Below are positions 33,991 to 59,843 of a DNA stretch of 64,000 nt, piece by piece. Under the pieces are notes generated by a model. That model was not told the DNA's origin. It was given only the letters and a program-made list of their open reading frames with translations, and made no database searches. Location of the stretch: the NCBI GenBank assembly GCA_965218945.1, contig OZ244718.1, forward strand, positions 3,005,700 through 3,069,699, in the 5' to 3' direction. The DNA comes from Dehalococcoidia bacterium. Its GTDB lineage: Bacteria > Chloroflexota > Dehalococcoidia > Lucifugimonadales > UBA2985. Position numbers and translations under genes: made by a program. Position 1 is the stretch's first letter. The number at the start of each line of letters is the position of its first letter.

Positions 33991-35514
33991 GTGGAGATGA
34001 CCTTGGACTCGCTTGATTCATACGTCCTGTTTGCGCTGGTGGCGATCCCCTTCGCGTGGGGGCTCGCAATTGCCCTCTTGCCGCCGGAGAGCCGTCAGGC
34101 CATCCGGGTCTTGTCGGTGGCGGTGTCCCTGGTTCTCCTGGCCCTGTCCACCTACGTCTTCCTGGGATACGACAAGGAAGCGGCCGGGTACCAGTTTATG
34201 CGGGAGTTCCAGTGGCTTGACTCCCTGGGCATCGCGCTTGCGCTGGGCGTGGATGGCATCTCCGTCCCGATGGTTTTCCTGACCGGCATAGTGACCTTTA
34301 CGGGCGTCCTCATCTCCTGGAACATCTCATCGGACATGCCGCGCCGTATGAAGGACTTCTTCGTCCTCTTCTTCCTGCTGGTGGCCGGCGTCTACGGGGT
34401 GTTCGTCTCGCTGGACCTCTTCTTCCTGTTCTTCTTCTACGAGCTGGCCGTGCTGCCCATGTACCTGCTCATCGGCGTGTGGGGAAGCAGCAGCGACTTC
34501 GGCACGTTCCTGCGACCCAAGGAGTACGGGGCGATGAAGCTCATGCTCTACCTCGTCGCGGGCAGCATACTGGTATGGATTGCGATTCTGGCGGTCTACG
34601 TTGAGAGCGGGATGGGGACTTTCTCCTTCCTGGCGCTGCAGAACGCCACCTTCTCCGAGGGCTTCCAGAAGTTCTTCTTCCTGCTGTTCATGGTGGGCTT
34701 CGGCGTGCTGGCGGGTCTCTGGCCCTTCCACACGTGGTCGCCGGACGGCCACGTGGCCGCGCCGACGGCGGTGAGCATGCTTCACGCCGGCGTGCTGATG
34801 AAGCTGGGCGCATACGGCATCATCCGGCTGGGAATCGACCTGCTGCCGGAGGGCGCGCAGTGGGGGGCGCAGTGGCTCATCATCCTTGGCATTATCAACG
34901 TGGTCTACGGCGCGGTGGCCGCTATGGGACAGCGCGACCTCAAGTACGTTGTGGGCTACTCCAGCGTCAGCCACATGGGATACGTACTGGTGGGATTCGC
35001 CACGCTCAACTCCTTTGGATTGAGCGGCGCTGTGCTCCAGATGTTCTCCCACGGCATTATGACGGCCCTCTTCTTTGCTCTTGTGGGCGCCATCTACGAC
35101 CGCGCGCACGTCCGGGACATCGGCGTCCTTGAGGGCTTGACCAGGCGCATGCCCCTGACCTCGGCCTTCTTTGCAGTTGCCGGCCTGACCTCTCTGGGAC
35201 TGCCCGGGCTGAGCGGGTTTGTGGCTGAGCTGATGGTGTTCATCGGCGCGTTCAGGGACTATCCAATTATCGGAATGCTCGGCATCGTGGGAGCGGCCAT
35301 CACTGCGGTCTACATCCTGCGGCTGCTGGGCAAGGTGTTCTTCGGCCCCATCAGCCCGCAGTGGGTGCGACTTACGGACGCAACGCGCCTCGAAGGGTTC
35401 TCGATGGCCATCCTGGTGGCTTTCCTGGTCGGGGTGGGTCTGTATCCGCGGCCGTGGATGGACCTGATTAACAGCGGCGTGGCTCCTCTGCTGGAAAGGG
35501 TGGTTGGGCTGTAA
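33991..35514 (+). CDS. nuoM: NADH-quinone oxidoreductase subunit M
   Basis: 507-aa antiporter-like subunit (PFHTWSPDGHVAAPTAVSMLHAGVLMKLG). Confidence 0.95.
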   Translation: MEMTLDSLDSYVLFALVAIPFAWGLAIALLPPESRQAIRVLSVAVSLVLLALSTYVFLGYDKEAAGYQFMREFQWLDSLGIALALGVDGISVPMVFLTGIVTFTGVLISWNISSDMPRRMKDFFVLFFLLVAGVYGVFVSLDLFFLFFFYELAVLPMYLLIGVWGSSSDFGTFLRPKEYGAMKLMLYLVAGSILVWIAILAVYVESGMGTFSFLALQNATFSEGFQKFFFLLFMVGFGVLAGLWPFHTWSPDGHVAAPTAVSMLHAGVLMKLGAYGIIRLGIDLLPEGAQWGAQWLIILGIINVVYGAVAAMGQRDLKYVVGYSSVSHMGYVLVGFATLNSFGLSGAVLQMFSHGIMTALFFALVGAIYDRAHVRDIGVLEGLTRRMPLTSAFFAVAGLTSLGLPGLSGFVAELMVFIGAFRDYPIIGMLGIVGAAITAVYILRLLGKVFFGPISPQWVRLTDATRLEGFSMAILVAFLVGVGLYPRPWMDLINSGVAPLLERVVGL

Positions 35515-36947
35515 TGAACTTCATGCTCTTCCTGCCGGAGTTCCTCCTCGCGGGCTTAGCCTTTGGCGTCCTGGGCATAGACCTGTTCCTGCCCAGGGAG
35601 AGGAAGATCTACCTGCCGTGGATAACCCTGGTGGGTCTTGTGGGCGTTTTGGTGGTGTCGCTGACCTACATGTGGGGCAGGGACACCGACCTGTACGACG
35701 GCCTGTTCCTCGTCGACAACTTCTCCCTCTTCTTCAAGGGCTTCTTCCTGGTCCTGGGCGCGCTGGTGGTGCTGATGTCCGTCGACTACGTGAAGAAGAA
35801 CTTGAGCCATCCCGGCGAGTACTACGGCATTCTGCTCTTCTCCATCCTGGGGATGATGCTGATGACTGCCGCGGGGGAGTTGCTCACTGCCTACATCTCC
35901 CTTGAGCTGCTCAGCTTCAGCCTGTACGTGCTGGTCTCCCACGGCAGGAACAACCCCAAGTCCAACGAGGCCGGCATCAAGTACATACTGCTGGGCGCTT
36001 TCGCCTCTGCGCTGCTCCTCTACGGCATCAGCCAGGTGTACGGGATGCTGGGCACGACCCGGTTCTCGGAGATACACGCGGTCCTGGCCTTCGAGCCGTC
36101 GCCCCTCAACCCGGCGTTGCTGGTGGGCCTGGCGCTCATTGTGGCCGGGCTGGGATTCAAGGTGGCCGCCGTGCCCTTCCACATGTGGGCCCCCGACGTC
36201 TACGAAGGCGCGCCTACGCCCATCACGGCGTATCTGGCCGTGGGATCTAAGGCCGCCGCCTTCGCCCTGATACTGAGGCTGTTTTCCCAGGCCTTCCTTC
36301 CGGCCATCGACGACTGGCAGATTATCCTGGTGGTGTTGGCCGCTCTGACCATGACTGTGGGTAACCTGGTGGCCCTGGCCCAGGACAACATCAAGAGAAT
36401 GCTGGCCTACTCCAGCGTAGGCCACGTGGGGTACCTGCTCCTGGGCGTGGCGGCCCTCTCGCCCTTGGCGTCCGACGGGGTTATCTTTCACCTGGCCGGG
36501 TATGGCGTGACCAACCTGGCCGCGTTTCTCTGCGTCATCATCTTCTACAATGCGACCAACCGGGAGGACATAGCCGGCTTCGCGGGCTTGGCGGACAGGG
36601 CGCCCTACCTGGCGATGGCCTTAGCCGTGGCCCTGTTCTCGCTGGCGGGACTGCCGTTCTTCGCCGGCTTCACAACCAAGTTCTACCTGTTCACCGCCGC
36701 CGCCGAGGGTGGTCTGCTGTGGCTGGTGGGGCTGGCCATCGTCAACAGCCTCATCTCCCTCTACTACTACCTGATGGTGATAAAGCAGATGTACATGGTG
36801 CCTGCCGGGGAGAACGCGCCGGTGAAGGTGTCTCTGTTGAGCGGAGGCGTCCTGGGGCTGCTGGTGCTTGGGATTATCGTCCTGGGCGTCTATCCCGGCC
36901 CCCTGGTGGACGCCATACAGGGAGCCACGGCCGCGATACTGCCGTAG
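35514..36947 (+). CDS. nuoN: NADH-quinone oxidoreductase subunit N
   Basis: 477-aa antiporter-like subunit (PFHMWAPDVYEGAPTPITAYLAVGSK). Confidence 0.95.
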   Translation: MNFMLFLPEFLLAGLAFGVLGIDLFLPRERKIYLPWITLVGLVGVLVVSLTYMWGRDTDLYDGLFLVDNFSLFFKGFFLVLGALVVLMSVDYVKKNLSHPGEYYGILLFSILGMMLMTAAGELLTAYISLELLSFSLYVLVSHGRNNPKSNEAGIKYILLGAFASALLLYGISQVYGMLGTTRFSEIHAVLAFEPSPLNPALLVGLALIVAGLGFKVAAVPFHMWAPDVYEGAPTPITAYLAVGSKAAAFALILRLFSQAFLPAIDDWQIILVVLAALTMTVGNLVALAQDNIKRMLAYSSVGHVGYLLLGVAALSPLASDGVIFHLAGYGVTNLAAFLCVIIFYNATNREDIAGFAGLADRAPYLAMALAVALFSLAGLPFFAGFTTKFYLFTAAAEGGLLWLVGLAIVNSLISLYYYLMVIKQMYMVPAGENAPVKVSLLSGGVLGLLVLGIIVLGVYPGPLVDAIQGATAAILP

Positions 36948-37375: not shown

Positions 37376-38923
37376 TCACTGCCCCAAGACAATCTTTCCA
37401 ATATGATGGAACGGCGGTTCAGGAATGGGCTGGTATACATCAATCACCTCATCGGCAAATTCGAACCGGCCAGTCAGGACGTCGATTGCCGCTTGAGCTA
37501 TGAGGGAAGAGCAGGCCGAGACTGCGGAGGGAGGGGCGTTGTTGACGGGGGCCGAGCAACCCAGCTGAGGAGAAGCGAAGTCCTCGCTTTCGGTACCAGC
37601 TGGTATGACTGGATAACGTAGGGAGTCCTCCCGTAGGTGAATCGGCGTGTCAGCGGGCACCACCTGCCGTTGCATCCGGCCAATGAAACCGCCTCGATAG
37701 AGCGCTCCCGAGACCAGCGGCTTTTCCATCTCCGCTGCCACCATGGCCAGTGAGGCAAGTAGCGCCTCGTTGCCCGTCGCGTCTAGGACGATGTCGGCGT
37801 CCTCTATGCGCTCTCGGATTGCGCCGGGCGTCCCGGGACCTTCCTGGAAACAGGTCACCTCCGTCCAGGGAGCGTGATCTGCAATCACCGCCTGGACCGC
37901 CTTTACCTTGGTGGTGCCCACCCGCCCATGGCCGGCGACGTGTCTCACCACATTCCCTGGCAAGAGCACGTCGGGGTCCACCAACGCCAATGAACCGAGC
38001 CCGCTTTCGGCTAGCAACGTTGCGGTGTGGCCGCCCAAGGCCCCCGCACCGAACAGAGTCGCTTTCCTGGTAAGCAACGTTGCCGAGTCTGGTCCCGCCC
38101 GGAGAATGAGGCTCTTGTCATCCTTTGGTCCTGGCTGCACTGCGATTGCCTCCACTTTGTCATCTACTCCTTTGCATACCATCACTAGCAGGTCGGTCCG
38201 ACCACGACGGTCCCAGCAGAACAGGATGAGATCCACGCCGCCGCTGACAACCAATGGGTCAGGTCTGCGCCGTTCCATCACCGCCCGCTGCAGTCCTCTA
38301 CGTTGTCCTCGTGATAGGTGGGCCGGAACCTCAGACAAATGACGGGGTGGTGGCGCCGTCAGCTCTCCCGCATGGAACCACAGCCCTTGAAGCTGGCTTC
38401 CTGTCGGCGGGTGCCCAGGCTCGATTTCTAGCCGGAACGGGTCGGGGTTCACAACCCCATAGAATTCACCCCAGCCTCGCTCGTGAACGGCAAGGGCACC
38501 GAGGTCGAAGGTGGCAACGAGGGCATCCTTGGGCCAGAAATTCAGCCATGCATCTTGATCGAGAAGGTCGTCCTCCCATCCACTTGTGGCGTTCTCGCAC
38601 CATTTCTCGATCCTGGAGTACAGACCATCGAGGGTGGCCCACTCCAAGCTAGGGTCTCCCTCGCGCCACATACACACCAAGCCCGAGCGCATCGAGTGGT
38701 TCGTGTTAAGGCCCTGCACGAAGAGACCAGGTGGACGGAAGGGCCATCCCGGAGCAATGACTATGTCCATCGTCTTCGCGTCGGTCAGCGGCCCGAAGGC
38801 CGGATGAATCTCGCCCGTCCAGCGTGGCGGGTCAGAGTCAGTGACCAGCCGGAAGCCAGCGGACGTCAGCTCCGAGGTGAACTGTTTCAGCGATTCAAGA
38901 TGGAAGTGTTGATCGGTGATCAT
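37376..38923 (-). CDS. cap2: Cap2-like E2/E1 fusion protein (CBASS type II accessory)
   Basis: N-terminal UBC-like segment (WPFRPPGLFV ... NHSMRSGLVCMW). C-terminal ThiF-type E1 (TLFGAGALGGHTATLLAESGLGSLALVDPDVLLPGNVVRH). Starts 3 nt after the CD-NTase stop. Confidence 0.8.
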   Translation of the reverse strand: MITDQHFHLESLKQFTSELTSAGFRLVTDSDPPRWTGEIHPAFGPLTDAKTMDIVIAPGWPFRPPGLFVQGLNTNHSMRSGLVCMWREGDPSLEWATLDGLYSRIEKWCENATSGWEDDLLDQDAWLNFWPKDALVATFDLGALAVHERGWGEFYGVVNPDPFRLEIEPGHPPTGSQLQGLWFHAGELTAPPPRHLSEVPAHLSRGQRRGLQRAVMERRRPDPLVVSGGVDLILFCWDRRGRTDLLVMVCKGVDDKVEAIAVQPGPKDDKSLILRAGPDSATLLTRKATLFGAGALGGHTATLLAESGLGSLALVDPDVLLPGNVVRHVAGHGRVGTTKVKAVQAVIADHAPWTEVTCFQEGPGTPGAIRERIEDADIVLDATGNEALLASLAMVAAEMEKPLVSGALYRGGFIGRMQRQVVPADTPIHLREDSLRYPVIPAGTESEDFASPQLGCSAPVNNAPPSAVSACSSLIAQAAIDVLTGRFEFADEVIDVYQPIPEPPFHHIGKIVLGQ

Positions 38924-38925: not shown

Positions 38926-39939
38926 CTATCCAAACCTACGGGCCTCATTCGGACGCCGGGCCACTGGTATGCCAGCGGCGGGGGCTACATATCTGGCTGC
39001 CTTGCTGCCGGGAGCCTTAGACGAGTTGCCCGCACCGACGCCGCTGGTGGAGCCTCTCCCAAAGCTCTCACCGAACAGTTTCTTCCAGGTATTGGCGGCC
39101 GCTTCGTTTGAAGGATCAGCCTTGGCCGTCTTTGCCGTCTGGGCATGGGAGTTGACTCTGGCCCGGAAGTTGGCGTACTTGGCCTGGTCCCAGTGTCGAT
39201 TGAAGTTCTCAGTTGGCAGAACGGGATTCTGGATCATCGGCATTACGGGATTGCGCTGGAGGATATCGTCCATTCTCGTCAGCACGGTCACCAGGGTGCC
39301 GGAGACTGTGCCGACGGCCTCCGTCCCCTCATCGGACGGCCTGATGGTGGCGCCAGCAAGGGTGGTCAGCAGAATGGACTTGGCGGTGTAGTTGTTCTTG
39401 TGGTCCCGCAGGTACTTGAGCAGCCTCACGACCCGCTTCAAGTTGCCGCCGGTAATCCGGTTCTTCTCGTTGAACCAGTCCCTGTACCCCGTACCGTCTG
39501 TCGGCTCGAATTTGTTATCGGCCCGATTGCAGACGTAGTGTCTGCCCTGAGAGGTCACCCGAGGAACGACGTCGAGGTGGAAGTCGCCGGCGTAGTCGAT
39601 GGTGACGCACCGTGTCTTGAGCCTGAGCTTGTCGGCATAGTTGTGATTCTGCTTGAGGGCGTTGTATATCGCGTTTACGTAGTCTTTGGCCTGCCAGTTG
39701 GGATTGGGGTTCATCACGATCTGGATGTCGGCATCGTACTCGTCGTTCTTGTCGACAGGCTTGATGAGGGTGCCCAGTGCGTATGAACCTTGCCGCTCCA
39801 TCTTCTGATAGCCGGTCAGGTTGTCTCTAAGGTGACTGTCTACAGCGCGCACACTGGTATTCAGTCGGTCGAGTCTGCTCTGGTTGAGATTGACCTCGTC
39901 CCTGAGAAGGTCTTGGAACTGCTGATTGTTCTTGGTCAT
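38926..39939 (-). CDS. CD-NTase / SMODS-family cyclic oligonucleotide synthase
   Basis: Pol-beta NTase signature QGSYALGT ... DEYDADIQIV. Start set at the ATG at 39939 behind an AAGGAGA RBS. Low-complexity C-terminal tail ending ...RRFG (terminal Gly). Confidence 0.75.
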   Translation of the reverse strand: MTKNNQQFQDLLRDEVNLNQSRLDRLNTSVRAVDSHLRDNLTGYQKMERQGSYALGTLIKPVDKNDEYDADIQIVMNPNPNWQAKDYVNAIYNALKQNHNYADKLRLKTRCVTIDYAGDFHLDVVPRVTSQGRHYVCNRADNKFEPTDGTGYRDWFNEKNRITGGNLKRVVRLLKYLRDHKNNYTAKSILLTTLAGATIRPSDEGTEAVGTVSGTLVTVLTRMDDILQRNPVMPMIQNPVLPTENFNRHWDQAKYANFRARVNSHAQTAKTAKADPSNEAAANTWKKLFGESFGRGSTSGVGAGNSSKAPGSKAARYVAPAAGIPVARRPNEARRFG

Positions 39940-40023
39940 CCGCGTCTCCTTGTGAAGTAGTGTTTTCGTCATCAGCGCCCCGGCCAGCCTCCGTACACGT
40001 ACGCAGACCATGCCGGAGTCATG

Positions 40024-40974
40024 TCACTCTGTTCTCTTCAAGTACTTCTTGACCTCCTCGCTGCGGAGTGTGAAGTCCCTGGTTGCAAGAGACATCAGTT
40101 CGTCCAGGTGCTTCACGTCGTCTAGGTCCCAATCATTGATAACGGGATCCAGACGCAGGTAGCTGCCTGGAAGAAACAGCTTCGCCATATTCTCCGAGGC
40201 CTGAGATTGCAGCCCGAGAACATAGGAGATCAGCTTCTGCCGGCGCCAGCCGGTAAGGAACCCCCAACTCCTGCTTCGGGAGTAGAGGTTGAGGGAGTGT
40301 CCAGTTCCGATAGATAGGATGCGCACCTGATCAACCGGCGTCCTGAACTTAGATACGGCCTCTGTCAGAGCTATGATCGAAGGATTGTTCGCCCACAGGC
40401 CGCCGTCTGCGAGTAGCAGATCGCCGACGAGAACAGGGTCAAAAAATGTAGGAGCTGCGCACGACGAGAGGATGGCGTCGCTCAAAAGCACCTGTGAATC
40501 CCTGACGTACGGCGCTTGGAGGTCCTCGAGGTACCTGGACTTGAACACATGGACTCCGCCGGTGGATATGTCGGAGCCGGTTATCATCAGCGGCTTCGAT
40601 ATCTGTCCCAGCGTGATGTTGGGTACGGACTCCCTTACGACCTGCTCGAGCGGCAGCCTTGAGTACTTGCTTCGAAATAAGAATGCGCCGATGCGCTTCT
40701 TTCCGAAGACCCTAGGGGCCTTCTCCTTGAAGAGCCTGACTATCTCGGCCATCGGGATGCCGACAGCCGCGGCTCCCCCTATGATCGACCCCGTGCTGGT
40801 GCCGACGATGAGGTCGAAGCACTCTCCGACCGGGGTCTGGAGCTCCTTTTCGATGTTGCCGAGCATCTGGGCGGGATAGATTCCTCTAGCCCCACCCCCG
40901 TCTAGGGCTAGGATGTGAAAAGCGGCTCCCTGATCCTTGGGTCTCTCCGTTCGTCCTTCTCTGCTAAACGGCAT
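40024..40974 (-). CDS. capV: patatin-like phospholipase (CapV-like CBASS effector)
   Basis: LDGGGARG oxyanion hole, GTSTGS (GxSxG) nucleophile and a LADGG catalytic Asp motif. ATG at 40974 behind a GGGAGA RBS (the track starts at a TTG at 40998). Confidence 0.85.
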   Translation of the reverse strand: MPFSREGRTERPKDQGAAFHILALDGGGARGIYPAQMLGNIEKELQTPVGECFDLIVGTSTGSIIGGAAAVGIPMAEIVRLFKEKAPRVFGKKRIGAFLFRSKYSRLPLEQVVRESVPNITLGQISKPLMITGSDISTGGVHVFKSRYLEDLQAPYVRDSQVLLSDAILSSCAAPTFFDPVLVGDLLLADGGLWANNPSIIALTEAVSKFRTPVDQVRILSIGTGHSLNLYSRSRSWGFLTGWRRQKLISYVLGLQSQASENMAKLFLPGSYLRLDPVINDWDLDDVKHLDELMSLATRDFTLRSEEVKKYLKRTE

Positions 40975-41076
40975 ATCGGTCTCCCGCGAGCTGCGCAATA
41001 CCGTGGTGCTCGACTGCTTCCTGTTGGGCGTTGTCCGGTTCCTTGTCTTGCCTCCGCAAGAGCAGTATGCGGCTCT

Positions 41077-41523
41077 TTACTTACGCCACTTCCCTGACGA
41101 CAAACCGCGCCATACGCGTCGGAGCCATGAGCGAGGGGTCTGACCGCGTGACGGCGAGCCAAGCATGCGAGCCCGCTCAGCACCCTCATAATCCGTGCGA
41201 CGCCCCGGATCGATCGGATACGACCAGACGACCTCGTTGTTTCGTATGAAATAGTGGCTGTTGCAATCGGAAGTGGTCCAGATTGACCCACCCGTAGGGC
41301 CTTTCAGCGAGACCGACTTGCCATCGAAGTAAACGTGCCATCGGCTGGGGTGGAGGGATAGCACCGCCAGTTCGCCACAGCCGCACGGACATCGCAGGTT
41401 AACGGTCCGATGCTTGTGGCTGACCCACAGCTCGCCATCTTTGATTGAGTCGAACGGGGGCATTACCTCTACGAAGATAGGGCGGAGCTTCACCGCGGGC
41501 AACTCATGCAAATCATTGCGCAT
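41077..41523 (-). CDS. DUF6527-like Cys-rich protein
   Basis: ELWVSHKHRTVNLRCPCGCGELAVLSL.PSRW.V.FDGKSVSL.......W...C.SHYFIRNNEVVW matches my recollection of DUF6527 (C-C-GC ... SHYWI.NN.V.W). The ATG at 41523 overlaps the E1 stop by 11 nt. It has an unusually long basic C-terminal tail. Confidence 0.6.
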   Translation of the reverse strand: MRNDLHELPAVKLRPIFVEVMPPFDSIKDGELWVSHKHRTVNLRCPCGCGELAVLSLHPSRWHVYFDGKSVSLKGPTGGSIWTTSDCNSHYFIRNNEVVWSYPIDPGRRTDYEGAERARMLGSPSRGQTPRSWLRRVWRGLSSGKWRK

Positions 41524-42700
41524 AGGAGATGCGCCCCTTCTCGAGCCGGAACTTCTGGAAGAATGAACGGGGCTCTGAAACATACTGCCCAGTGCGGCGG
41601 CGCCACTCCATGACGGCAAACGTCGCAGCCGCCGCGTTCACCTCCGGCAGTTGGACATTGCGATACCCGGGGGCACCACCATGCAGTCTGGCGTTCGGTA
41701 TGGCATCCTTCCAAGCATCAGAACCTGCATCATATGCACTTGTCGTCACGGAGCCTCTAACAGCACAGGCCTCGAGCGTTATACTCACGCCCGAATCGAT
41801 GAACGGCACCGCCGCCTCAGAGAGAGAGCAGTAGACGACATCCTGACGCGGCGAATCGCCCTCAGTGAGTTGGTCAATACACACGAAGGCATAGTCGATG
41901 GGATGATCCGACAGAAACTCAGCGAACATTGACGGGCTGTCTACTCGAACAGGATGCGGATGGATGCCGTCCCGGAAGGCCGCATACTTGGAATAATAGT
42001 AATCGACCTTGAACAGTGATCCCGCGCGAACGAGATCAATCTCCTCGGCGGTAGGCGCACCAGGGGCTCGCATGAGGGTGTGCCAGTCTACGCAATCAGA
42101 ATCCAGTAGATGGATTTCCGACACGGGCGTTTTGGCTATGAGATCAAGAAGGTAGGCGCCCGTTCCGCCCAAGCCGATAATCGCAATGCGCTGACCGCGG
42201 ATGCGGTCCTGGACTGGCGCGATGGCGGCCCGTGCCTCAAACGTGTTGGGTACGTGGAAGGGATCGGGCGTCCCGGCAGAAGCAGTCTCGGTGTGTCCGG
42301 CCGCCCACGCCGCCCCGACGATCTGCTTCGCATAGCGATGGACAACGTCGCTCGCCGACCTATCGTCTTCCGGGCTTTCCTGGCTGCCCTTGTGGATGGA
42401 GATGTTTGACCAGGTCTTGCCGTCACCTCCGACGCGGTTCCCAATAGGGGTCCCATCCGCATGGTACACGAGCCCGTCGAGCTCTGCGGCAGTGGTGATC
42501 TGCACCGCGTGGACCGCGTCGCCTATCCGACCATCCGGCTTCCCGCTGGAGGGGTCGTAGGACTTCCTGATGGTGCAAGTGCCAACGACCCCCTCCTTAA
42601 GGCGACAAGGAACCCCGACGGCCAGGACAATGTCAGGTTCGACCCTGACCTCAAACCCGACCTGCTCACCGAACGCGGTGAGGCGGTCTTTAGGAGACAT
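41513..42700 (-). CDS. ThiF-family E1-like adenylyltransferase with ~190-aa N-terminal extension (possible E2-like domain)
   Basis: Rossmann IAIIGLGGTGAYLLDLIAKT and LLDSDCVDWHTLMR. Start set at MSPKDRL (42700), which overlaps the Ubl stop by 11 nt. The N-terminal domain is not assignable by eye. Confidence 0.7.
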   Translation of the reverse strand: MSPKDRLTAFGEQVGFEVRVEPDIVLAVGVPCRLKEGVVGTCTIRKSYDPSSGKPDGRIGDAVHAVQITTAAELDGLVYHADGTPIGNRVGGDGKTWSNISIHKGSQESPEDDRSASDVVHRYAKQIVGAAWAAGHTETASAGTPDPFHVPNTFEARAAIAPVQDRIRGQRIAIIGLGGTGAYLLDLIAKTPVSEIHLLDSDCVDWHTLMRAPGAPTAEEIDLVRAGSLFKVDYYYSKYAAFRDGIHPHPVRVDSPSMFAEFLSDHPIDYAFVCIDQLTEGDSPRQDVVYCSLSEAAVPFIDSGVSITLEACAVRGSVTTSAYDAGSDAWKDAIPNARLHGGAPGYRNVQLPEVNAAAATFAVMEWRRRTGQYVSEPRSFFQKFRLEKGRISYAQ

Positions 42701-42938
42701 GCTCCGGGTCCACCGAGAAGCTAGTGCCGTCCTTGACCCTAACGTCCTTGCCCGGCAGGAGAACACCGTCCTCACCTTTCGAGTCGTCTTCGTAGTCAAT
42801 GCCGGGCGTGCCGATGATGTGCTTGTTCTCCGGCTCATGTAGCTGGTTCCATATCTTCACGATCTCCTCATAGGTCACGAGACCGCTTGGAACCTTGTAC
42901 TCTCGACCGCTCACGTAGATCTCCGTATCGCCATTCAT
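42690..42938 (-). CDS. ubiquitin-like beta-grasp protein (multiubiquitin-domain-like, single domain)
   Basis: 82 aa. EIYVSGREYKVPSGLVTYEEIVKIW ... DGVLLPGKDVRVKDGTSFSV fits the Multi_ubiq pattern. Very strong RBS (AAGGAAGGAGG). C-terminus is ...DPEHVS, not Gly. Confidence 0.6.
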   Translation of the reverse strand: MNGDTEIYVSGREYKVPSGLVTYEEIVKIWNQLHEPENKHIIGTPGIDYEDDSKGEDGVLLPGKDVRVKDGTSFSVDPEHVS

Positions 42939-42972
42939 GGGTATACCTCCTTCCTTGTTGTCCCACTAGATA

Positions 42973-43002
42973 TTGACAGTACCAACTCCGGTACTCCAAT
43001 AT
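42973..43002 (+). promoter_or_regulatory. divergent promoter region with palindromic candidate operator
   Basis: TTGACA (42973-42978), an 18-nt spacer, then CAATAT (42997-43002). The spacer is the perfect palindrome AGTACC-N6-GGTACT (42978-42995). On the opposite strand, TATATT lies just upstream of the same palindrome. Confidence 0.45.
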
Positions 43003-43077
43003 ACAGGGTATGAGCCGGTCGGCTCCCTTGTCAAGCCTTCAGTGGCACATTGTACCGTTTACCGCACAGGAGGCGAG

Positions 43078-43557
43078 ATGAACACAGGTAAGCTTGAACT
43101 CAGCGACCTAGGCCGCTTGGTTCTTGCCGAGCGAAGCCGTAGAGAGATGAGCCTCCGGGAGGCGGCTCTTGCCATAGGAATCCCCTTCAACACCTTGGCG
43201 CGCGTAGAGAAGGGGCACGTCCCCGACCTCCCTAAGTTCAAGAGACTCGTCGAATGGTGCGGCGCGGACATCACGCAATTCTTTGAAGCTCAGGAGAAGG
43301 CGGCGGCGACTACGGACATCATTGCCGAGCACCTTCGCTCGGACAGCAATCTACCCTCTGGCGCAGCCGATCAGATTGCAGGAATCGTCAGCGAGCTCTA
43401 CCAGGCGCTGGCGCGGCCCCAAGAAATCGTCGCAGTGCATCTGCGGGCCGCAAAGACGTTCCGCCCGGACGCTGCTCGCGTCATAGGCGTGTTACTCAGC
43501 GATATGAATGAAGCACTCATAGAGGAGCTTGCCGATGGCGCTGCGGAGAGGGTTTAA
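43078..43557 (+). CDS. XRE-family HTH regulator (CapH-like)
   Basis: HTH SLREAALAIGIPFNTLARVEKG. ATG at 43078 behind a CAGGAGG RBS. About 90-aa C-terminal non-HTH domain. Confidence 0.75.
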   Translation: MNTGKLELSDLGRLVLAERSRREMSLREAALAIGIPFNTLARVEKGHVPDLPKFKRLVEWCGADITQFFEAQEKAAATTDIIAEHLRSDSNLPSGAADQIAGIVSELYQALARPQEIVAVHLRAAKTFRPDAARVIGVLLSDMNEALIEELADGAAERV

Positions 43558-44089
43558 GTCCGAAGCCGAGAGAATAGCTAGGGGTGTGCAGGTGGACTTG
43601 GGAATCAGCGCGGCTCAGTCGGTCACTCCCGAAATGCTCGCCGATCTGCTGGGCATCGAGGTCCGAGCGGGGGACGAGTTGATACCACGCAAGAGGTTCG
43701 CCGAACTCGAAAAGGTGCAACCCGGCGCCTTCTCAGCGTGTACGTTTCGACCTTCGGCCGATCGCGTGGTCGTCGTATACAATCCTCTCTCGGCAGAATC
43801 GCGCCGGAGGAGCGATCTGGCACATGAACTTGCGCATACCCTTCTTGAGCACGAGCTGAGCCGGGTCGAGAAGCTCGGCGAAGTCACCTTCCTGTCTTGT
43901 GATTCGACTCAGGAGGAAGAGGCTACCTGGTTGTCCGGTTGTCTCCTTCTACCCCGTGCACTGCTACTGGTGGAAGTCCGTAAGGGATCTGGTGCGAGGG
44001 AGATTGCAAAGAGGTGCGGCGTCAGCGAAAAGATGGCTCAGTACAGATTGAATGTCACTGGTGTAACTAGGCAGAACCGAGCAGGTTAA
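43535..44089 (+). CDS. ImmA/IrrE-family zinc metallopeptidase (CapP-like)
   Basis: HExxH (AHELAHTLLEH) followed by EEEATWLSGCLLLP, typical of ImmA/IrrE. Overlaps the end of the HTH gene. Confidence 0.75.
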   Translation: MALRRGFKSEAERIARGVQVDLGISAAQSVTPEMLADLLGIEVRAGDELIPRKRFAELEKVQPGAFSACTFRPSADRVVVVYNPLSAESRRRSDLAHELAHTLLEHELSRVEKLGEVTFLSCDSTQEEEATWLSGCLLLPRALLLVEVRKGSGAREIAKRCGVSEKMAQYRLNVTGVTRQNRAG

Positions 44090-44283: not shown

Positions 44284-45162
44284 CTATGCGCCGCCTGGAC
44301 TAACCAGCTGCGCCACCTGAGGCCGCAGATCGCTGATCACAGTCTGGAATATAGGCAAGTCCGGCATGAGCGGGCCGAGCGACTGCTCCCAAGTCTCTTC
44401 GACGAAAGCAAGCATGCGGTCATGGAAGAATTTGTCCGGTCCTGCGAAGAAGACACCCCGGACGGCGCACTTCTCACGCAGCAGCGAGTCGAAGCCTGCC
44501 AGGTTCATTTGGTCTCTGTAGGCGTCAAGCACCCGCCAGAGGTCGTAGTAGTCGCGGGCGCGTGAGCGGCTCCAACCTCTCCGCTCGAACATTTCCGCTT
44601 GTTGCAGGAGCGCTCGCAGCTTTTCGGCAACAATCTCTTCGAGGGAATACACCTTCACTTCTGCGTTGAGCGGCTCGCCGTACTCGTGGATGACCTGCCG
44701 CAGCTCGGCAGGCAGCAGGACTCTCTCATCCATCGTTACCTCGACCATGACACGGGTCTGCAGGCGGCTGTGCCACGGAAACCTCGCTCGGATGGCGAAT
44801 GCTTCCTGACCGCCTGGATGGAGTTCCCTCTCCGTGTAACGCTCACAAGTGATCTCCACAGGAGCGTATTCGTCCAGAAGTCGCACGGCGGTTCCGCACA
44901 CTTCCCTTATCAACCCCTCTATCTCGTTGCCAGTCGGAATCCCTTTCAGCGTTGAGAAGTCCAAGTCCTCAGAGAAGCGGTAGTCACCGAAGTAGCACTT
45001 TCGGAGGGCTGTGCCTCCCTTGAAGACCAGTGTGTCGCGGAGCACGGGCGTCCGGCTAACGCCAGCCAAGATCCAGGACAGCAGGTAGTCGCGTTCAAGA
45101 GCCTCCCAGGGGATGCCGAGGCGTCGGCGTGCTTCCTGTAGGCGCGTGCGGAGTGGTCTCAT
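44284..45162 (-). CDS. abiEii: AbiEii/AbiGii-family nucleotidyltransferase toxin (type IV TA)
   Basis: LVFKGGTALRKCYFGDYRFSEDLDFS signature of DUF1814/AbiEii. Confidence 0.8.
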   Translation of the reverse strand: MRPLRTRLQEARRRLGIPWEALERDYLLSWILAGVSRTPVLRDTLVFKGGTALRKCYFGDYRFSEDLDFSTLKGIPTGNEIEGLIREVCGTAVRLLDEYAPVEITCERYTERELHPGGQEAFAIRARFPWHSRLQTRVMVEVTMDERVLLPAELRQVIHEYGEPLNAEVKVYSLEEIVAEKLRALLQQAEMFERRGWSRSRARDYYDLWRVLDAYRDQMNLAGFDSLLREKCAVRGVFFAGPDKFFHDRMLAFVEETWEQSLGPLMPDLPIFQTVISDLRPQVAQLVSPGGA

Positions 45163-45998
45163 GCCTCAACCATCCTTGGCAGGTTTTCCTGCACCATCCA
45201 ACGGCCATTGCATGGCCCCTTGCGAGGCCCAGTAGAATCAAGCTTGCGGTAGCCCTTGATCGGCAGCGCCGCCAGCTCCTCCAACTCGAACGGGAGAACC
45301 CCTTGGGCTTCGAGCGCCCACCCCAAGCGCTTGGCTGTGGTCACGCCCAGCCTGATGGCGTACTCTGTGATGCGTTCGATGTTCAGTCGAGCCATCGCGA
45401 CTTGGAAGGCGTAGAGCACCTCCCCGAACCCCCCACAGTGCTGGGGCATGGAGAGGCAGTCCAGCAACGTGCGCTCCAAGTCAGACATGGGCACACGGGC
45501 TTCGCCGACCCACAGGTTCTCACTTCCGAAGAAGCGGTCGGGCTTGACCTGGATGAACCGGTACGTTGTATCCCCGACGACGAAGCCGCCTCCGGCCCTC
45601 TCCTTCCCTTCCTTCCTCGGACGTGGAACCCAGGCATCCGTCGTCGTGAGGACGAAAACATCCCTCGGTATCTGCTCCGTCAACCCATGATGGTGCAGGG
45701 CCGACCAGTGGGAAATCATGGCTGGGTCCACCAAGGCCGTGGCTATCTCGAATTCGTGGGCGTCCGCAACCCCAGGGACCGTGGGAGAGAGCGCATAGAG
45801 TCCTCGCCGGAGGGGGACGATCCAGTCGTTCTTACGGAGGTGGTACAGCGCTTCGGTGAGGTAGGAGTCCTTCAGACCTACACGCGGCGCGAGCTCCCTG
45901 GCCCGCTCCGTCGTGAAGATGCGGTCTCCCTCATAGGCGAGCAGCCGGACCAGTTCGATGCCGACCAGAGATTGCTTGGGCTTTGTGCTAACCGTCAT
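45159..45998 (-). CDS. abiEi: AbiEi-family antitoxin/transcriptional regulator
   Basis: N-terminal wHTH. 4-nt overlap with abiEii. Start set at MTVSTKP (45998). Confidence 0.7.
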   Translation of the reverse strand: MTVSTKPKQSLVGIELVRLLAYEGDRIFTTERARELAPRVGLKDSYLTEALYHLRKNDWIVPLRRGLYALSPTVPGVADAHEFEIATALVDPAMISHWSALHHHGLTEQIPRDVFVLTTTDAWVPRPRKEGKERAGGGFVVGDTTYRFIQVKPDRFFGSENLWVGEARVPMSDLERTLLDCLSMPQHCGGFGEVLYAFQVAMARLNIERITEYAIRLGVTTAKRLGWALEAQGVLPFELEELAALPIKGYRKLDSTGPRKGPCNGRWMVQENLPRMVEA

Positions 45999-46039
45999 TG
46001 TACGTATCCCAGGGTTACATCTGGGTGAGAAGCAACTGC

Positions 46040-46068
46040 TTGCAAATTTACAGCGAAACTTGGATAAT
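46040..46068 (+). promoter_or_regulatory. sigma70-type promoter for the methyltransferase cluster
   Basis: TTGCAA, a 17-nt spacer, then GATAAT, 45 nt upstream of the ATG at 46113 (RBS GAGGGAGAG). Confidence 0.5.
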
Positions 46069-46112
46069 GTCAAAGATGCTGTGTTCCTGAGCTAACTATT
46101 GAGGGAGAGTCG

Positions 46113-49100
46113 ATGACCTCACCTACCGCCAATCAGACATCCGCATACCTCGAAGCCACATTCGGCCTTGGGCGCGACTGGACGTCGCAGGCAGGGCAGT
46201 CTGCAACGGTCTGGGAGACGCCTGCTTACCATCTTCTGTGGTTCAATGATGCAGCGAGCGATGTGGAACTACGGAGACTGTGGGAGGCACGGAAAGGCCG
46301 TCAAGCCTATCCGGTTGTCTTGCTGGCCCCATCAGACGACGCAAACAAACTGCGGGTAGCTGGGCCGCAGGATGCCCGGCCCATTCGGGAGTTGCCAGTC
46401 AGCCGAGTCCTCGACCTATTGGAGACGAGCCGCAGTCTGGCGGCCCGTGAAGCGGCATCGTTCCTGGCCAGGGAGTTCAGCCGTCTTGAGGAGGCAGTGG
46501 TTCCCGGGCTGCGGGTCAAGGACCTCCTCACCCCTCATTTCATGCGGGAGCGCCTGCGCCGGCCCATCAACGAGCAGCGATTGTCCGGCGCCGTCGATGG
46601 TATCGCTTCTATCGGCAGCATTGCATGGCGCTCACTGTTCCAAGGCATGGGCTACCAGGTGGAGCAGCTTCCCCAGCGCGGTTACTTGCTGAGGCACGAC
46701 AATGCGCCGGTTGCTGTGGTGCATCCTCACCGGGACGCCTCCCAGTTCAGCAGCCTCACGGACAACGGAGAACTGCCCGAGGGAATGGTGCTGGCGGACT
46801 GCGGGCAGCACGGGGCGCATTGGGGCATCCTGGCGGCGGAGGGCCGCTACCGGCTATTTCAGCGACGGCCTCCGGTAGGACCGGCGACGGGTCAGCACGT
46901 GGAGTTAGACCTAAGAGAGTTGGAGCGGAGCGACCGCTTCTATCTGGGTCTACTTGCCCCAGAGTCATTGAAGGAAAAGGGATGGCTGACCGATTGGGTC
47001 GGTGAGGCGAAGGACTTTGGTGAAGAGCTGCGGAAGGGGCTCGAGGAGCGGCTCATCAAGGACGCGCTGCCCAACATTGCGCGTGGGCTGGGTGAGTATC
47101 TTGAATCGCAGGGCGCAGATATGCGTGACCGGGAGCAACTCCGGCAGATAGAGGAGGCGGCGCTGACGCTGGTATTCCGGTTCATGTTCCTGTTGCACAC
47201 CGAGGCTCGCGGTTATCTCCCCATCGGCTCGGCGGCCTACCGGCCCCACAGCGCACGCCAGCTTGCCGAGGACTCCCGGCTGGCGCTGTCGTCGCTCAGC
47301 CGGAGGGCTACCCAGCGGTGGGACCGACTTCGGACACTGGTACGGATGGTGCGCACCGGAGATCGCTCGGCCGGAGTGCCCGCCTACAACGGCAGCCTCT
47401 TCGCTGCCGATGGCTTCCCTGGCAGCGCATTGCTGGAACGGGCCGAAATCGCCGACGTCCACCTCGCTCCTGCACTCGCGGCGATCGCCTACGAGACGGA
47501 CAAACCCGACGCTCCTGGACTGGATTACGCCGGCCTGCAAATCGGCCACCTGGGCGCCATCTATGAGGCCCTTCTCACCCTGAGGCTCACCCGCGCCCCC
47601 GAAGACCTGGCCTACGATTCCAGGCAGGATATGTTCCGCCCCGTCCGCGCCGGGGAGCAGCCGGAGGTGACCAGGGCTCAGCTCTACTACCAAGCCGAGA
47701 CGGGCGGACGAAAGGCCGGAGGCGTGTTCTACACGCGGCATGAGTTCGTGGATCACCTACTCAACCATTCGCTGCTGCCCGCCCTCGACGACCATCTGGC
47801 CGAGGTCAAGAAGGTCGCCCAGCAGGACTCCACCGAGGCGACGCGGCGGCTGTTCGACTTCTCGGTAGTGGACCCGGCGATGGGCAGCGCCCACTTCCTT
47901 ACGGCGGCCTTGGACATGATTGCTGACCGCATCGAGATCTTCCTCGCCGAAGTCGGCGGCCTGCCCGGTATTGCCCAGCTACTGAAGGAGTTGAGCCAGG
48001 ACAATGGGACGGTCTCTCAGCAGCCGGAGGACGGCGACCTGCTGCGGCGGCTCATACTCAAACGCTGCATCTACGGCGTAGACCTCTCCCCGATGGCGGT
48101 GGAGGTCGCTAACGTCACGCTCTGGCTGGCGTCCTTCGTTCCCGGCTTGGCCCTCTCCTATCTGGGCAGCAACCTCAAGTGCGGCGATGCCCTCATCGGC
48201 GTGGCCGATCCGTCCGTGGTCGGCGCCAGCGACAGCCCTCTCTTCACAGGCCAGACCGTGCGGAACGCCATGGACCACGCCGCCGCGCTCCAGCGGGAGC
48301 AGGCCGCTATCCCTGACCGGACGCCGGAAGAGGTCAAGCAGTCAGAGGAATTGGGAACCCGTCGGGAGGAAGCCACCGCAGGTCTGAGAGCGGCCTTCGA
48401 CCTGTGGGCGGCGGAACCACTTGGATTGACCGTCGAAAACAAGTTCATCGCGAAGAACGGAGATCTCCAAGAGCGTGTTGGTTCCCGTCATATACTGGAG
48501 AACAACGCGGCCGCTATTGTAGAGCGGCGTGAGACCCCAGATGTATCCGAAGTTGTAGCCAATGCCTCCGCCATCGCCGCCCAGTACCGCTTCTTCCACT
48601 GGCCCCTGGAGTTCCCCAACGTCTTCCACAGGGAGCATCCTGGCTTCGACGTGGTGGTCGGCAATCCACCGTGGAACGAGATAACCGTCGAGGAACTCGC
48701 CTTCTATGCGCTGCGCGAGCCTGGACTGCGGGGATGGTCGAATCTGGCTGACAGAAGAAGGCGCATCGCCGAGCTTGATGTGGAGAATCCTGGCTGGCGG
48801 GGGGAGCTTGAGGTACAGCAGGAACAAATGGCGACACTGCGGCAGTTCTTCTGGAAGAGCGGAGAGTATCACCTTTGGAGCGTGGGCGACCGGGACCTGT
48901 ACCAGCTCTTTTGCGAACGCTATGACCATTTAATCCGCCAGGAAGGGCGATTAGGTGTGGTGCTTCCTAGGAATGCATTCTTGGCGGAAGGGGCCAAACG
49001 ATTCAGACAGTGGCTCTTTACTCGCAACAGCCTGCGGCGTCTCGACCTCCTGCTAAATAACCGAAGTTGGGCGTTCACTATTCATCCGCAATATACGATT

Positions 49101-55271: not shown

Positions 55272-55694
55272 CTTCGTCTCTCTATTGCTTTCGTGGCAGG
55301 CTGTCCCAATTCCAAGTATGGCCACGACAAGGGTACCACTCGCTCACCCCACGAGTTTTTCGATACAGGGTGTGACACCTCGAACGCCCTGTCAAAAGCA
55401 AGCCTTGTCGGGGGACAAGCCTAGGTCCAGCCACAGGCCTCCCTTACGCGCCACCGATGAATCGAAGATCAGCGCTGACCTGATATGGTCACCCTGCGCT
55501 CTGCCGTTCCGAAGCACCTCGACTGGTTCTAATCAAGGCTTTCCCCTCGCTCCTACCACAAAACCGCACCCAAAACAAGGGCTTGCAATGCCTTACCTTC
55601 GACGAATTTCCCGTTTAAAATGGGATGTTGGGCTATTGCTGGCAGGAGCAGTCGATTGATCGTCGCGGAGCCAAGAACACAACCATTGAACGGC

Positions 55695-59669: not shown

Positions 59670-59843
59670 TCGCTCAGGACATTAACCTTGGCCAACTCCG
59701 ATTTCAACACCGCCCTCAAGTTGCTCCAAGCCCGGGCCATCCGCCTGTTTATGGAGGAACGGGAGTGGCGCAGACGGGAGCGGCTGGAACGGCTGCGCTC
59801 CCGCCCGACTACTGACCAGGATGACACAGGGAGGAGAGACTGA
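59670..59843 (+). pseudogene. N-terminally truncated RHH gene paralogue
   Basis: In-frame translation ...TALKLLQARAIRLFMEEREWRRRERLERLRSRPTTDQDDTGRRD* parallels the C-terminal half of the 58108 RHH protein. It has no start codon or beta-strand region. Confidence 0.55.

What the first reader, a model, noticed from the sequence alone, without database searches (positions are those of the whole stretch)
41077..42938. Ubl / E1-like / DUF6527 triad tightly coupled by identical 11-nt overlaps; the Ubl lacks a C-terminal glycine
**Seen in sequence.**
- The Ubl stop and the E1 start overlap by 11 nt (GAGCATGTCTCCTAA). The E1 stop and the DUF6527 start also overlap by 11 nt (ATGCGCAATGA). This argues for stoichiometric, translationally coupled expression.
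- The Ubl ends in ...SFSVDPEHVS rather than a Gly or Gly-Gly.
- The E1-like protein carries about 190 residues N-terminal to the Rossmann fold. That region contains two Cys (GVPCRL, GTCTIR) and a WSNISIHKGS segment, but no JAMM HxH motif.
- DUF6527 has a CPCGCG cluster plus C..SH, which looks like a small metal-binding domain.

**Established knowledge.** E1 enzymes adenylate a free C-terminal carboxylate, usually Gly. Multiubiquitin-type operons typically pair an E2-E1 fusion with a JAB and a small metal-binding protein.

**Inference.** One of the following holds:
- the Ubl is processed before activation;
- the chemistry is non-canonical;
- the Ubl acts as an adaptor rather than a conjugated tag.
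Basis: partly seen in the sequence, partly recalled or inferred. Interest (0 to 1): 0.75.

Follow-up and report, generated by a model that had tools for sequence, protein, structure and literature searches.

The report
Type II Bub ubiquitin-like conjugation operon
These three overlapping genes are a bacterial ubiquitin-like protein-tagging system of an already described family (Type II Bub), and the tag's unusual serine end is normal for that family.

Summary
On the minus strand there is an 82-aa beta-grasp Ubl (42938..42690), a 395-aa E2-E1 fusion (42700..41513) and a 148-aa DUF6527 protein (41523..41077). Each junction overlaps by 11 nt, and the Ubl ends ...DPEHVS.

This is a Type II Bub operon (BubA-BubBD-BubE, formerly "6E/DUF6527"), characterised by Ye et al. 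(bioRxiv 10.1101/2024.11.21.623953). The family residues are present:
- BubBD: adenylation Arg211, crossover-loop Tyr346 and an invariant E2-domain Ser101.
- BubE: a C4 zinc site (C45/C47/C49/C87) and a Ser80-His90 dyad.

A divergent CapH/CapP-like regulator pair lies upstream.

The missing C-terminal Gly is a family trait. 53 of 56 close and 18 of 19 distant Type II Bub loci have a Ubl ending in Ser with no tail. Wider relatives end in Ser, Ala or Gly. The E. coli BubA that was conjugated in vitro also ends in Ser. Processing and adaptor readings are therefore unlikely, and "non-canonical chemistry" (oxyester relay) is right but already published.

Modestly new points:
- A diverged clade whose E2 domain does not match Pfam DUF6791 and carries two invariant Cys.
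- Spread at 60-90% identity across many phyla.
- The Ser terminus is not discussed in the two preprints read.

The parts
42690..42938 (-). bubA: 82-aa Ubl with a single beta-grasp domain. Six-residue C-terminal tail D77-P-E-H80-V-S82; the terminal Ser codon is 42693-42695.
   Evidence: Pfam Multi_ubiq 1.7e-6. AF2 model pLDDT 87.8 with beta-beta-alpha-beta-beta-beta-beta order. Best PDB fold hit is 9cd2, the E. coli ZDHYS365 multi-ubiquitin protein, E 4e-4, TM 0.67. 119/120 homologues end in Ser. GGAGG lies 7 nt upstream of the ATG.
42251..42700 (-). bubBD N-terminal E2-like (BubB) domain, residues 1 to about 150. Invariant H64 and S101 (codon 42398-42400); S98 nearly invariant; C32 and C42 conserved only in this clade.
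   Evidence: Domain-only hhalign against the E. coli-like DUF6791 domain: probability 88%, E 3e-6. AF2 order is helix, four strands, long loop, helix. S101 177/177, S98 173/177, H64 176/177, C32 and C42 175/177. No Pfam hit even at E<=10.
41513..42250 (-). bubBD C-terminal E1 adenylation (BubD) domain. Gly loop G176-G181 (42158-42175), Arg211 (42068-42070), crossover-loop Tyr346 (41663-41665).
   Evidence: 30% identity to E. coli ZDHYS365 BubBD, E 3e-33. Profile-profile probability 100%, E 1e-57. R211 78/78 across both clades and Tyr 77/78. Equivalents R219 and Y342 confirmed in P0289. Top PDB fold hits are Citrobacter BubCD 9ea5/9eav, then UBA5, MccB and MoeB.
41077..41523 (-). bubE: 148-aa DUF6527 protease. 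C4 zinc site C45/C47/C49 (41377-41391) plus C87; Ser80 (41284-41286) and His90 (41254-41256) dyad; basic Trp-rich C-terminal extension.
   Evidence: Pfam PF20137 7e-16; newer Pfam labels this family 'BubE'. E 1e-11 to E. coli BubE. The four Cys and H90 are conserved in 55-56 of 56 sequences. S80-I-W-x4-C-x-S-H matches Citrobacter S92-V-W-x4-C99-x-S-H102 without gaps.
42690..42700 (-). 11-nt overlap of the bubA stop and the bubBD start (ATGTCTCCTAA).
   Evidence: Exactly 11 nt in 45/56 close loci; 26 nt in 17/19 distant loci.
41513..41523 (-). 11-nt overlap of the bubBD stop and the bubE start (ATGCGCAATGA).
   Evidence: The length of this junction varies among relatives.
42939..43077 (.). 139-nt divergent intergenic region between bubA and the HTH gene; presumed promoter and operator region.
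   Evidence: Coordinates. No consensus promoter or inverted repeat was found by the simple scans, so the function is inferred from position only.
43078..43557 (+). CapH-like HTH regulator, 159 aa. The start was corrected from the ORF's TTG at 42973 to the ATG at 43078, which is preceded by AGGAGG.
   Evidence: Pfam HTH_3 and HTH_31. Gene call of 159 aa. Start context. The divergent pair is present in about half of the close loci.
43529..44089 (+). CapP-like Peptidase_M78/IrrE metallopeptidase, partner of CapH.
   Evidence: Pfam Peptidase_M78 8e-17. PADLOC capP 3.5e-10. Ye et al. report CapH+CapP next to many Bub operons.

Best explanation

The proposed mechanism is inferred from the characterised E. 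coli and Citrobacter systems; nothing has been shown for this locus.

1. **Expression.** The three proteins are made from one transcript. The start codons of bubBD and bubE are embedded in the preceding genes, so translation is probably coupled.
2. **Activation.** BubA is used unprocessed. The free carboxylate of its last residue, Ser82, at the end of a six-residue tail (DPEHVS), is adenylated by the E1 domain of a BubBD dimer (Gly loop 176-181, Arg211).
3. **Relay.** The acyl group moves to the crossover-loop Tyr346 as an oxyester. It then moves to a Ser in the fused E2 domain, most likely Ser101 (alternatively Ser98), and finally to a lysine on a target.
4. **Reversal.** BubE is a zinc-stabilised Ser80-His90 protease. 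It removes BubA from targets and so restrains the pathway. It is not needed for maturation, because there is no C-terminal extension to remove.

The non-Gly terminus is the family rule: a small residue, mostly Ser.
For: **Gene content and order**
- Ubl, then E2-E1 fusion, then DUF6527, with no JAB. This matches the published definition of Type II Bub.

**Homology to the characterised proteins**
- BubBD: E 3e-33 pairwise and hhalign 100%, E 1e-57.
- BubE: E 1e-11.
- BubA model: best PDB match is the E. coli ZDHYS365 BubA structure 9cd2.
- BubBD model: best matches are Citrobacter BubCD structures.

**Catalytic residues**
- R211 and Y346 are conserved in 177/177 close sequences and 77-78/78 across both clades. 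They correspond to R219 and Y342 of E. coli BubBD, whose mutation abolished conjugation.
- S101 is 177/177.
- BubE zinc ligands and H90 are conserved in 55-56 of 56 sequences.

**Ser terminus**
- Without a tail in 53/56 close and 18/19 distant loci.
- S/A/G = 16/9/4 among 50%-identity representatives.
- E. coli BubA, active in vitro, ends ...TDKS.

**Context**
- CapH/CapP neighbours as reported for many Bub operons.
- Defence-island setting.
Against: - No experiment exists for this clade.
- Its N-terminal domain is far from the characterised one. It gives no Pfam DUF6791 hit even at E<=10, and the domain-only profile match is only 88%. The active-site loop is modelled at pLDDT below 50.
- The E2 Ser cannot be assigned with confidence. 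hhalign places E. coli S106 opposite the non-conserved Q107.
- Two clade-specific invariant cysteines (C32, C42) leave open a different E2 chemistry.
- The biological role of any Bub operon is unknown. Ye et al. found no phage protection.
- No complex prediction could be run, so the BubA-E1 interface is untested here.
Confidence: 0.85

Rival explanations
1. The Ubl is a pro-protein. A peptidase (BubE or a host enzyme) trims the C-terminus to expose a glycine before E1 activation, as in Type I Bub, Bil and eukaryotic ubiquitin.
For: Type I BubAB is cleaved after a conserved Gly. BubE can cleave a BubA-GFP fusion. One of 120 homologues ends in Gly instead of Ser.
Against: There is nothing to trim. 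Ser is the last residue, with no extension, in 119/120 homologues and in 71 of 75 loci. The nearest Gly (G71) immediately precedes the last beta-strand (72-76) of the fold, so cleavage there would remove a core strand. The tail after that strand is six residues; from my own knowledge this is about the length of ubiquitin's flexible C-terminal tail. Full-length E. coli BubA ending in Ser is conjugated in vitro.
Confidence: 0.03
2. The Ubl is not conjugated. It acts as an adaptor or regulator bound by an E1-like scaffold, and the Cys-less E2-like domain is catalytically dead, as predicted for '6e' operons in 2006.
For: Iyer et al. 2006 judged the E2-like domains of these operons inactive, RWD-like. 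The N-terminal domain here is very divergent.
Against: Adenylation residues and the crossover-loop Tyr are invariant in 177 sequences, and so is a Ser in the E2 loop. That is hard to explain for a scaffold. The E. coli and Citrobacter systems conjugate through these residues. A dedicated Ser-His protease is retained.
Confidence: 0.07
3. The triad works together with the adjacent CBASS genes (patatin, CD-NTase, Cap2; no Cap3) as one composite system. BubE might replace the missing Cap3, or all genes might be under CapH/CapP control.
For: Same strand, a 78-nt gap and no convincing terminator between bubE and the patatin gene. No JAB/Cap3 gene in the CBASS unit. CapH/CapP were first described with CBASS. 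The CD-NTase ends in Gly.
Against: None of 58 other loci with this Bub clade has CBASS genes next to it. L005 carries only a patatin fragment. The triad alone is the conserved unit. BubBD and Cap2 are only weakly related outside the Rossmann motif.
Confidence: 0.1

Closest known systems
Type II Bub operon of E. coli ZDHYS365 (BubA-BubBD-BubE; Ye, Gong, Chambers & Corbett, bioRxiv 10.1101/2024.11.21.623953)
   Same: Same three genes in the same order, with no JAB. E2-E1 fusion with the adenylation Arg, the crossover-loop Tyr 2-3 residues before N[IV]Q, and an invariant E2 His and Ser. BubE with a C4 zinc site and a Ser-His dyad. The Ubl ends in Ser six residues after the last strand. The Ubl stop overlaps the BubBD start.
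   Different: - BubBD is only 30% identical.
- The N-terminal domain does not hit Pfam DUF6791 and has two invariant Cys.
- The E2 Ser context is ISI[KRH][KR]G rather than FSNKP.
- BubA has one beta-grasp domain rather than three.
- The tail motif is D-P-x-H-x-S rather than T-[DN]-[KR]-S.
- The gene overlap is 11 nt rather than 26 nt.
Type I Bub operon of Citrobacter sp. RHBSTW-00271 (BubAB, BubCD, BubE; PDB 9ea4, 9ea5, 9eae, 9eav)
   Same: The E1 domain is the best structural match. Tyr-based E1 and Ser-based E2 oxyester relay. BubE motif S-[VI]-W-x4-C-x-S-H.
   Different: Type I has a JAB-E1 fusion and a Ubl-E2 pro-protein that is cleaved after a conserved Gly. Here there is no JAB, no pro-protein and a Ser terminus.
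Type II CBASS Cap2 (E2-E1 fusion) acting on the CD-NTase C-terminus
   Same: A fused E2-E1 enzyme in a defence island that activates the C-terminus of a partner protein. A true example lies 78 nt downstream in this window.
   Different: Per, Type II CBASS and Bil work through Ubl~cysteine thioesters, and those characterised pathways encode a JAB/JAMM peptidase (Cap3 in CBASS). The substrate is the cyclase, not a Ubl. BubBD matches Cap2 models only across the Rossmann motif.
MccB and PaaA, ThiF-like enzymes acting on peptide C-termini
   Same: ThiF-fold adenylation domains; they appear among the structural and sequence hits. From my own knowledge they adenylate non-Gly C-termini (Asn in MccA), which shows that Gly is not a chemical requirement.
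   Different: No E2 domain, no Ubl, no conjugation to proteins.

Membership tests
Type II Bub operon (formerly 6E.2 / DUF6527 operon) | Gene set Ubl + E2-E1 fusion + DUF6527 protein in one operon, typically without a JAB/JAMM peptidase | tested here: met
   Three consecutive overlapping minus-strand genes with Multi_ubiq, ThiF and DUF6527 hits and no JAB hit. Definition.
Type II Bub operon (formerly 6E.2 / DUF6527 operon) | BubA is a beta-grasp (Multi_ubiq) protein | tested here: met
   Pfam 28.6 bits against a cutoff of 24.5. AF2 pLDDT 87.8. Top PDB fold hit is E. coli BubA 9cd2.
Type II Bub operon (formerly 6E.2 / DUF6527 operon) | E1 domain with intact adenylation residues (Arg equivalent to E. 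coli R219) | tested here: met
   R211 invariant in 78/78 and 177/177; Gly loop invariant. Mapping to R219 via P0289.
Type II Bub operon (formerly 6E.2 / DUF6527 operon) | Invariant crossover-loop tyrosine instead of a conserved catalytic cysteine | tested here: met
   Y346 (GYRNVQ) 177/177; Tyr present in 77/78 across clades; equals E. coli Y342. The only Cys in the loop region, C312, is not conserved (94/177).
Type II Bub operon (formerly 6E.2 / DUF6527 operon) | N-terminal UBC-like E2 domain with an invariant Ser accompanied by invariant Lys and His | tested here: inconclusive
   Domain-only hhalign 88%, E 3e-6. H64 aligns with E. coli H66. S101 is invariant, followed by K/R/H at +2 and K/R at +3. 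Against this: no DUF6791 hit, the loop alignment is unreliable, the loop pLDDT is below 50 and no model coordinates were available.
Type II Bub operon (formerly 6E.2 / DUF6527 operon) | BubE with a C4 zinc finger and an invariant Ser-His dyad | tested here: met
   C45/C47/C49/C87 and H90 conserved in 55-56 of 56. S80 is invariant in the clade and matches Citrobacter S92 without gaps through C99 and H102. MAFFT alone would place T77 there.
Type II Bub operon (formerly 6E.2 / DUF6527 operon) | ATP-dependent Ubl conjugation through oxyester intermediates | not testable with these tools
   Biochemistry exists only for the E. coli and Citrobacter systems.
Type I Bub operon | JAB/JAMM peptidase fused to E1, and a Ubl-E2 pro-protein cleaved after a conserved Gly | tested here: not met
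   No JAB hit. The N-terminal domain of the E1 protein is E2-like. The Ubl is a stand-alone 82-aa protein ending in Ser.
Type II CBASS Cap2 | E2-E1 fusion matching Cap2 models, paired with a CD-NTase substrate and a JAB peptidase (Cap3) | tested here: not met
   BubBD hits PADLOC E1-E2 models at only 16-21 bits, across residues 155-212. The neighbouring 515-aa protein scores 568 bits.
Bil (bacterial ISG15-like) operon | Separate E1 (IAD-AAD-CYS), separate E2, a JAB and a Ubl | tested here: not met
   E2 and E1 are fused, there is no JAB and no conserved catalytic Cys.
ThiS/MoaD-ThiF/MoeB sulfur-carrier pair | Ubl with a C-terminal Gly-Gly and a stand-alone E1-like adenylase, with no E2 or protease partner | tested here: not met
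   The terminus is ...HVS, an E2-like domain is fused and BubE is present.

The most novel reading that the evidence does not exclude
This clade may not be a sequence-diverged copy of the E. coli system but a mechanistic variant of Type II Bub. Three observations would fit that:
- The invariant tail D-P-x-H-x-[Ser/Ala/Gly], with His at -2, could take part in activation or transfer, or be the BubE recognition element.
- The clade-specific invariant pair C32/C42 in the unrecognisable E2-like domain could supply a different (thiol or metal) step in the relay.
- Near-identical copies in at least eight phyla, some with sponge-associated names, could reflect recent selection for a shared target, for example a common phage.
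Probability: 0.15. Interest if true: 0.6.

Novelty: new member of a known kind. Interest (0 to 1): 0.3.

Why it matters
This locus adds little to what is already published. It is a correctly spotted example of a recently characterised bacterial ubiquitination-like pathway.

Three points are useful:

1. **C-terminal residue.** Type II Bub Ubls end in a small non-Gly residue, mostly Ser, with no cleavable tail. This was shown here across 75 loci. The two preprints I could read do not state it, and it means annotation rules that require a C-terminal Gly will miss these Ubls.
2. **A diverged, widely transferred clade.** Its E2 domain escapes Pfam DUF6791, and PADLOC v2 has no hit to its BubA or BubE. 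The published catalogue lists none of the six taxon-name prefixes searched (Dehalococc-, Chloroflex-, Gemmatimon-, Acidobacter-, Poribacteria, Caldilinea).
3. **Residues to mutate.** R211, Y346, S101/S98, C32/C42 in BubBD; S80 and H90 in BubE; S82 in BubA.

The biological role of Bub systems remains open, and this locus does not settle it.

Tried and rejected
- **Y323 rejected.** I first took Y323 as the crossover-loop Tyr, from a six-sequence alignment that included an OCR-derived E. coli sequence. The OCR had read Y342 as V. The database sequence P0289 and 20 distant loci show that the invariant Tyr sits 2-3 residues before N[IV]Q, which is Y346.
- **Global MAFFT unreliable.** Aligning close and distant BubBD or BubE together misaligned the E2 loop and the BubE Ser. 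I used per-clade alignments, motif spacing and hhalign instead.
- **Pfam on the N-terminal 150 aa.** No hit at E<=10.
- **PDB sequence search with an N-domain profile.** Only chance hits.
- **Literature search on Multi_ubiq / PF14452.** Unproductive. Iyer et al. 2006 describe the '6e' operons but say nothing on the Ser terminus.
- **Intergenic and bubE-patatin scans.** Promoter, terminator and inverted-repeat scans were uninformative.
- **CBASS coupling.** Considered and judged unlikely because the association is not conserved.
Full report
**1. Observation**

The region holds three consecutive minus-strand genes:

| Gene | Coordinates | Length | Note |
|---|---|---|---|
| Ubl | 42938..42690 | 82 aa | ends ...SFSVDPEHVS |
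| E1-like | 42700..41513 | 395 aa | |
| DUF6527 | 41523..41077 | 148 aa | |

- The Ubl stop and the E1 start share 42690-42700 (ATGTCTCCTAA).
- The E1 stop and the DUF6527 start share 41513-41523 (ATGCGCAATGA).
- Both overlaps are 11 nt, but the sequences differ.
- An independent ENA gene call on an identical contig gives the same three products and overlaps.
- Pfam gives Multi_ubiq, ThiF (residues 162-217 only) and DUF6527, with no JAB.
- The Rossmann loop begins at G176, so the N-terminal extension is about 170 residues rather than about 190.

**2. Identity**

The only papers in the library that mention DUF6527 are two Corbett-lab preprints. They define Bub (bacterial ubiquitination-like) operons, previously called '6E' or 'DUF6527' operons. 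Type II consists of BubA (Ubl), BubBD (E2-E1 fusion) and BubE (DUF6527), typically without a JAB.

They report the following:
- The family works through oxyester intermediates: an E1 crossover-loop Tyr and an E2 Ser.
- BubE is a Ser-His protease with a C4 zinc finger that removes conjugates.
- Many operons sit next to CapH+CapP or CapW regulators.
- No phage protection has yet been shown.

The window matches this description:
- BubBD is 30% identical to E. coli ZDHYS365 BubBD over 341 residues, E 3e-33. Profile-profile comparison gives probability 100%, E 1e-57.
- BubE matches E. coli BubE at E 1e-11.
- The AF2 model of the Ubl (pLDDT 87.8) is a beta-grasp. Its best PDB match is the E. coli ZDHYS365 BubA structure 9cd2, followed by other beta-grasp folds.
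- The AF2 model of BubBD (pLDDT 81.7) best matches the Citrobacter BubCD structures, then UBA5, MccB and MoeB.
- Upstream and divergent lie an HTH gene (43078..43557; start corrected) and a Peptidase_M78 gene that hits the PADLOC capP model.

**3. Catalytic residues**

I fetched 80 genomic loci with BubBD. Loci L001-L059 form a close clade (60-82% identity). Loci L060-L080 are E. coli-like (30-38% identity).

*BubBD*
- R211 is invariant in 78/78 sequences.
- The invariant Tyr lies 2-3 residues before N[IV]Q. This is Y346 here and Y342 in E. coli. I corrected an initial mis-assignment to Y323, which came from an OCR error in the supplement sequence.
- In 177 close-clade sequences, R211, Y346 and S101 are 177/177, H64 is 176/177 and S98 is 173/177.
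- In the E. coli-like clade the E2 motif is F-S106-N-K-P with invariant H66. Here it is W-S98-N-I-S101-I-[K/R/H]-[K/R]-G with H64.
- S101 is the better candidate for the nucleophile, because it is strictly invariant and has a basic residue at +2. The assignment is not secure: the loop aligns poorly and is modelled at pLDDT below 50.

*BubE*
- C45/C47/C49/C87 and H90 are conserved in 55-56 of 56 sequences.
- S80-I-W-T-T-S-D-C87-N-S-H90 matches Citrobacter S92-V-W-L-K-D-G-C99-R-S-H102 without gaps.

**4. The C-terminus, the core of the finding**

- Among the 120 best protein homologues, 119 end in Ser and one in Gly. None has a tail, and the longer ones differ at the N-terminus.
- In the genomic loci, the gene upstream of BubBD ends in Ser in 53 of 56 close and 18 of 19 distant loci. 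The close clade ends ...VDPEHVS and the distant clade ends ...NVxxT[D/N][K/R]S.
- Among 50%-identity cluster representatives, the full-length relatives end D-P-x-H-x-[S/A/G], with 16 Ser, 9 Ala and 4 Gly.
- The E. coli BubA used in the published in vitro conjugation ends ...YVTQTDKS.
- The nearest Gly, G71, immediately precedes the last strand (72-76) of the model. Trimming to a Gly would therefore remove a core strand.

The terminus is thus a conserved, small, mostly Ser residue on a six-residue tail, and BubA is most likely activated as translated. In contrast, Type I BubAB is cleaved after a conserved Gly by the JAB domain. Neither preprint mentions the Ser terminus in its text, and Iyer et al. 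2006 do not either. This is a small addition to the literature, not a discovery.

**5. Gene overlaps**

- The BubA/BubBD overlap is exactly 11 nt in 45 of 56 close loci and 26 nt in 17 of 19 distant loci. An embedded BubBD start is a conserved family trait and is consistent with translational coupling. Coupling itself is an inference.
- The BubBD/BubE junction varies, from a 17-nt overlap to a 9-nt gap in most loci. The matching 11 nt at both junctions is particular to this locus.

**6. How this clade differs**

- The N-terminal domain gives no Pfam hit even at E<=10, whereas E. coli-like BubBDs hit DUF6791 at 3e-50.
- Domain-only hhalign supports homology at 88%, E 3e-6.
- A profile of the domain finds nothing in the PDB by sequence.
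- C32 and C42 are conserved in 175/177 clade members and absent from the E. coli-like clade. Their role is unexplained.
- Close copies occur in MAGs labelled Dehalococcoidia, Gemmatimonadaceae, Vicinamibacterales, Latescibacterota, Alphaproteobacteria, Gammaproteobacteria, Binatia and others. BubA is 75-90% identical in most of these. Some MAGs carry names such as Poriferihabitaceae and Porisulfidus. This points to horizontal spread. A sponge-associated habitat is my inference from those names.
- The published catalogue lists none of the six taxon-name prefixes searched (Dehalococc-, Chloroflex-, Gemmatimon-, Acidobacter-, Poribacteria, Caldilinea).
- PADLOC v2 gives no hit for BubA or BubE.

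**7. Context**

- Downstream on the same strand, after 78 nt, lie a patatin phospholipase, a SMODS CD-NTase and a Cap2-type E1-E2 protein (568 bits). This is a CBASS unit without a Cap3.
- None of the other 58 loci with this Bub clade has CBASS beside it. L005 has only a patatin fragment. I treat the adjacency as island packing rather than functional coupling.
- Further along are AbiEii/AbiEi, a type IIG/DrmMI-like methylase, an HKD-Snf2 helicase, a SIR2-like protein and a large serine recombinase.

**8. Verdict**

It is a member of a known, recently characterised family. The 'missing glycine' is the family norm. I rate novelty as a new member of a known kind (a diverged clade) and interest as low to moderate.

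Noticed in passing
window 37376-40998 (minus strand): A CBASS unit lies 78 nt downstream of bubE: a patatin effector (40998..40024), a SMODS CD-NTase (40011..38926, ending ...RRFG) and a Cap2-type E1-E2 protein (38923..37376, PADLOC 568 bits). No Cap3/JAB gene is present. The island ends at the nuoN-like gene 35514..36947.
   Followed up: partly
window 44284-61474: The rest of the island is defence and mobility genes: AbiEii/AbiEi (44284..46073), a 1341-aa type IIG / DrmMI-like methylase (46113..50138), an HKD+Snf2 helicase (50931..54173), a Replic_Relax protein (55620..57671), a SIR2-like protein (58519..59550) and a large serine recombinase (59843..61474). No tRNA gene occurs in the window.
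   Followed up: partly
loci L001-L059: The same bubA-bubBD-bubE clade occurs in MAGs labelled as at least eight phyla or classes. BubBD is 60-82% identical, and BubA is 75-90% identical in most loci. Some MAGs carry names suggesting sponge association (Poriferihabitaceae, Porisulfidus). This implies recent horizontal transfer.
   Followed up: partly
L005:5500-8130: This is the nearest relative of the island, with CapH/CapP 96-97% and AbiE 87-92% identical. It has lost bubA: the CapH start lies about 31 nt from the bubBD start. It retains only a 145-residue fragment of the patatin gene. It looks like a decaying copy.
   Followed up: no
window 42575-42607 (BubBD C32, C42): Two cysteines on neighbouring strands of the E2-like domain are conserved in 175/177 clade members and absent from E. 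coli-like Type II BubBD. Their role is unknown.
   Followed up: partly
protein P0264: An 1823-aa protein from the representative library matches the 82-aa Ubl in 10 separate stretches. It may be a very long array of Multi_ubiq-like beta-grasp domains. P0241 (166 aa) is a tandem two-domain version ending ...SPEHIA.
   Followed up: no
window 41077-42938: PADLOC-DB v2.0 gives no hit for BubA or BubE, and only weak Rossmann-motif hits for BubBD. Defence-system annotation with that release would miss the operon. A newer Pfam release already labels PF20137 as 'BubE'.
   Followed up: yes
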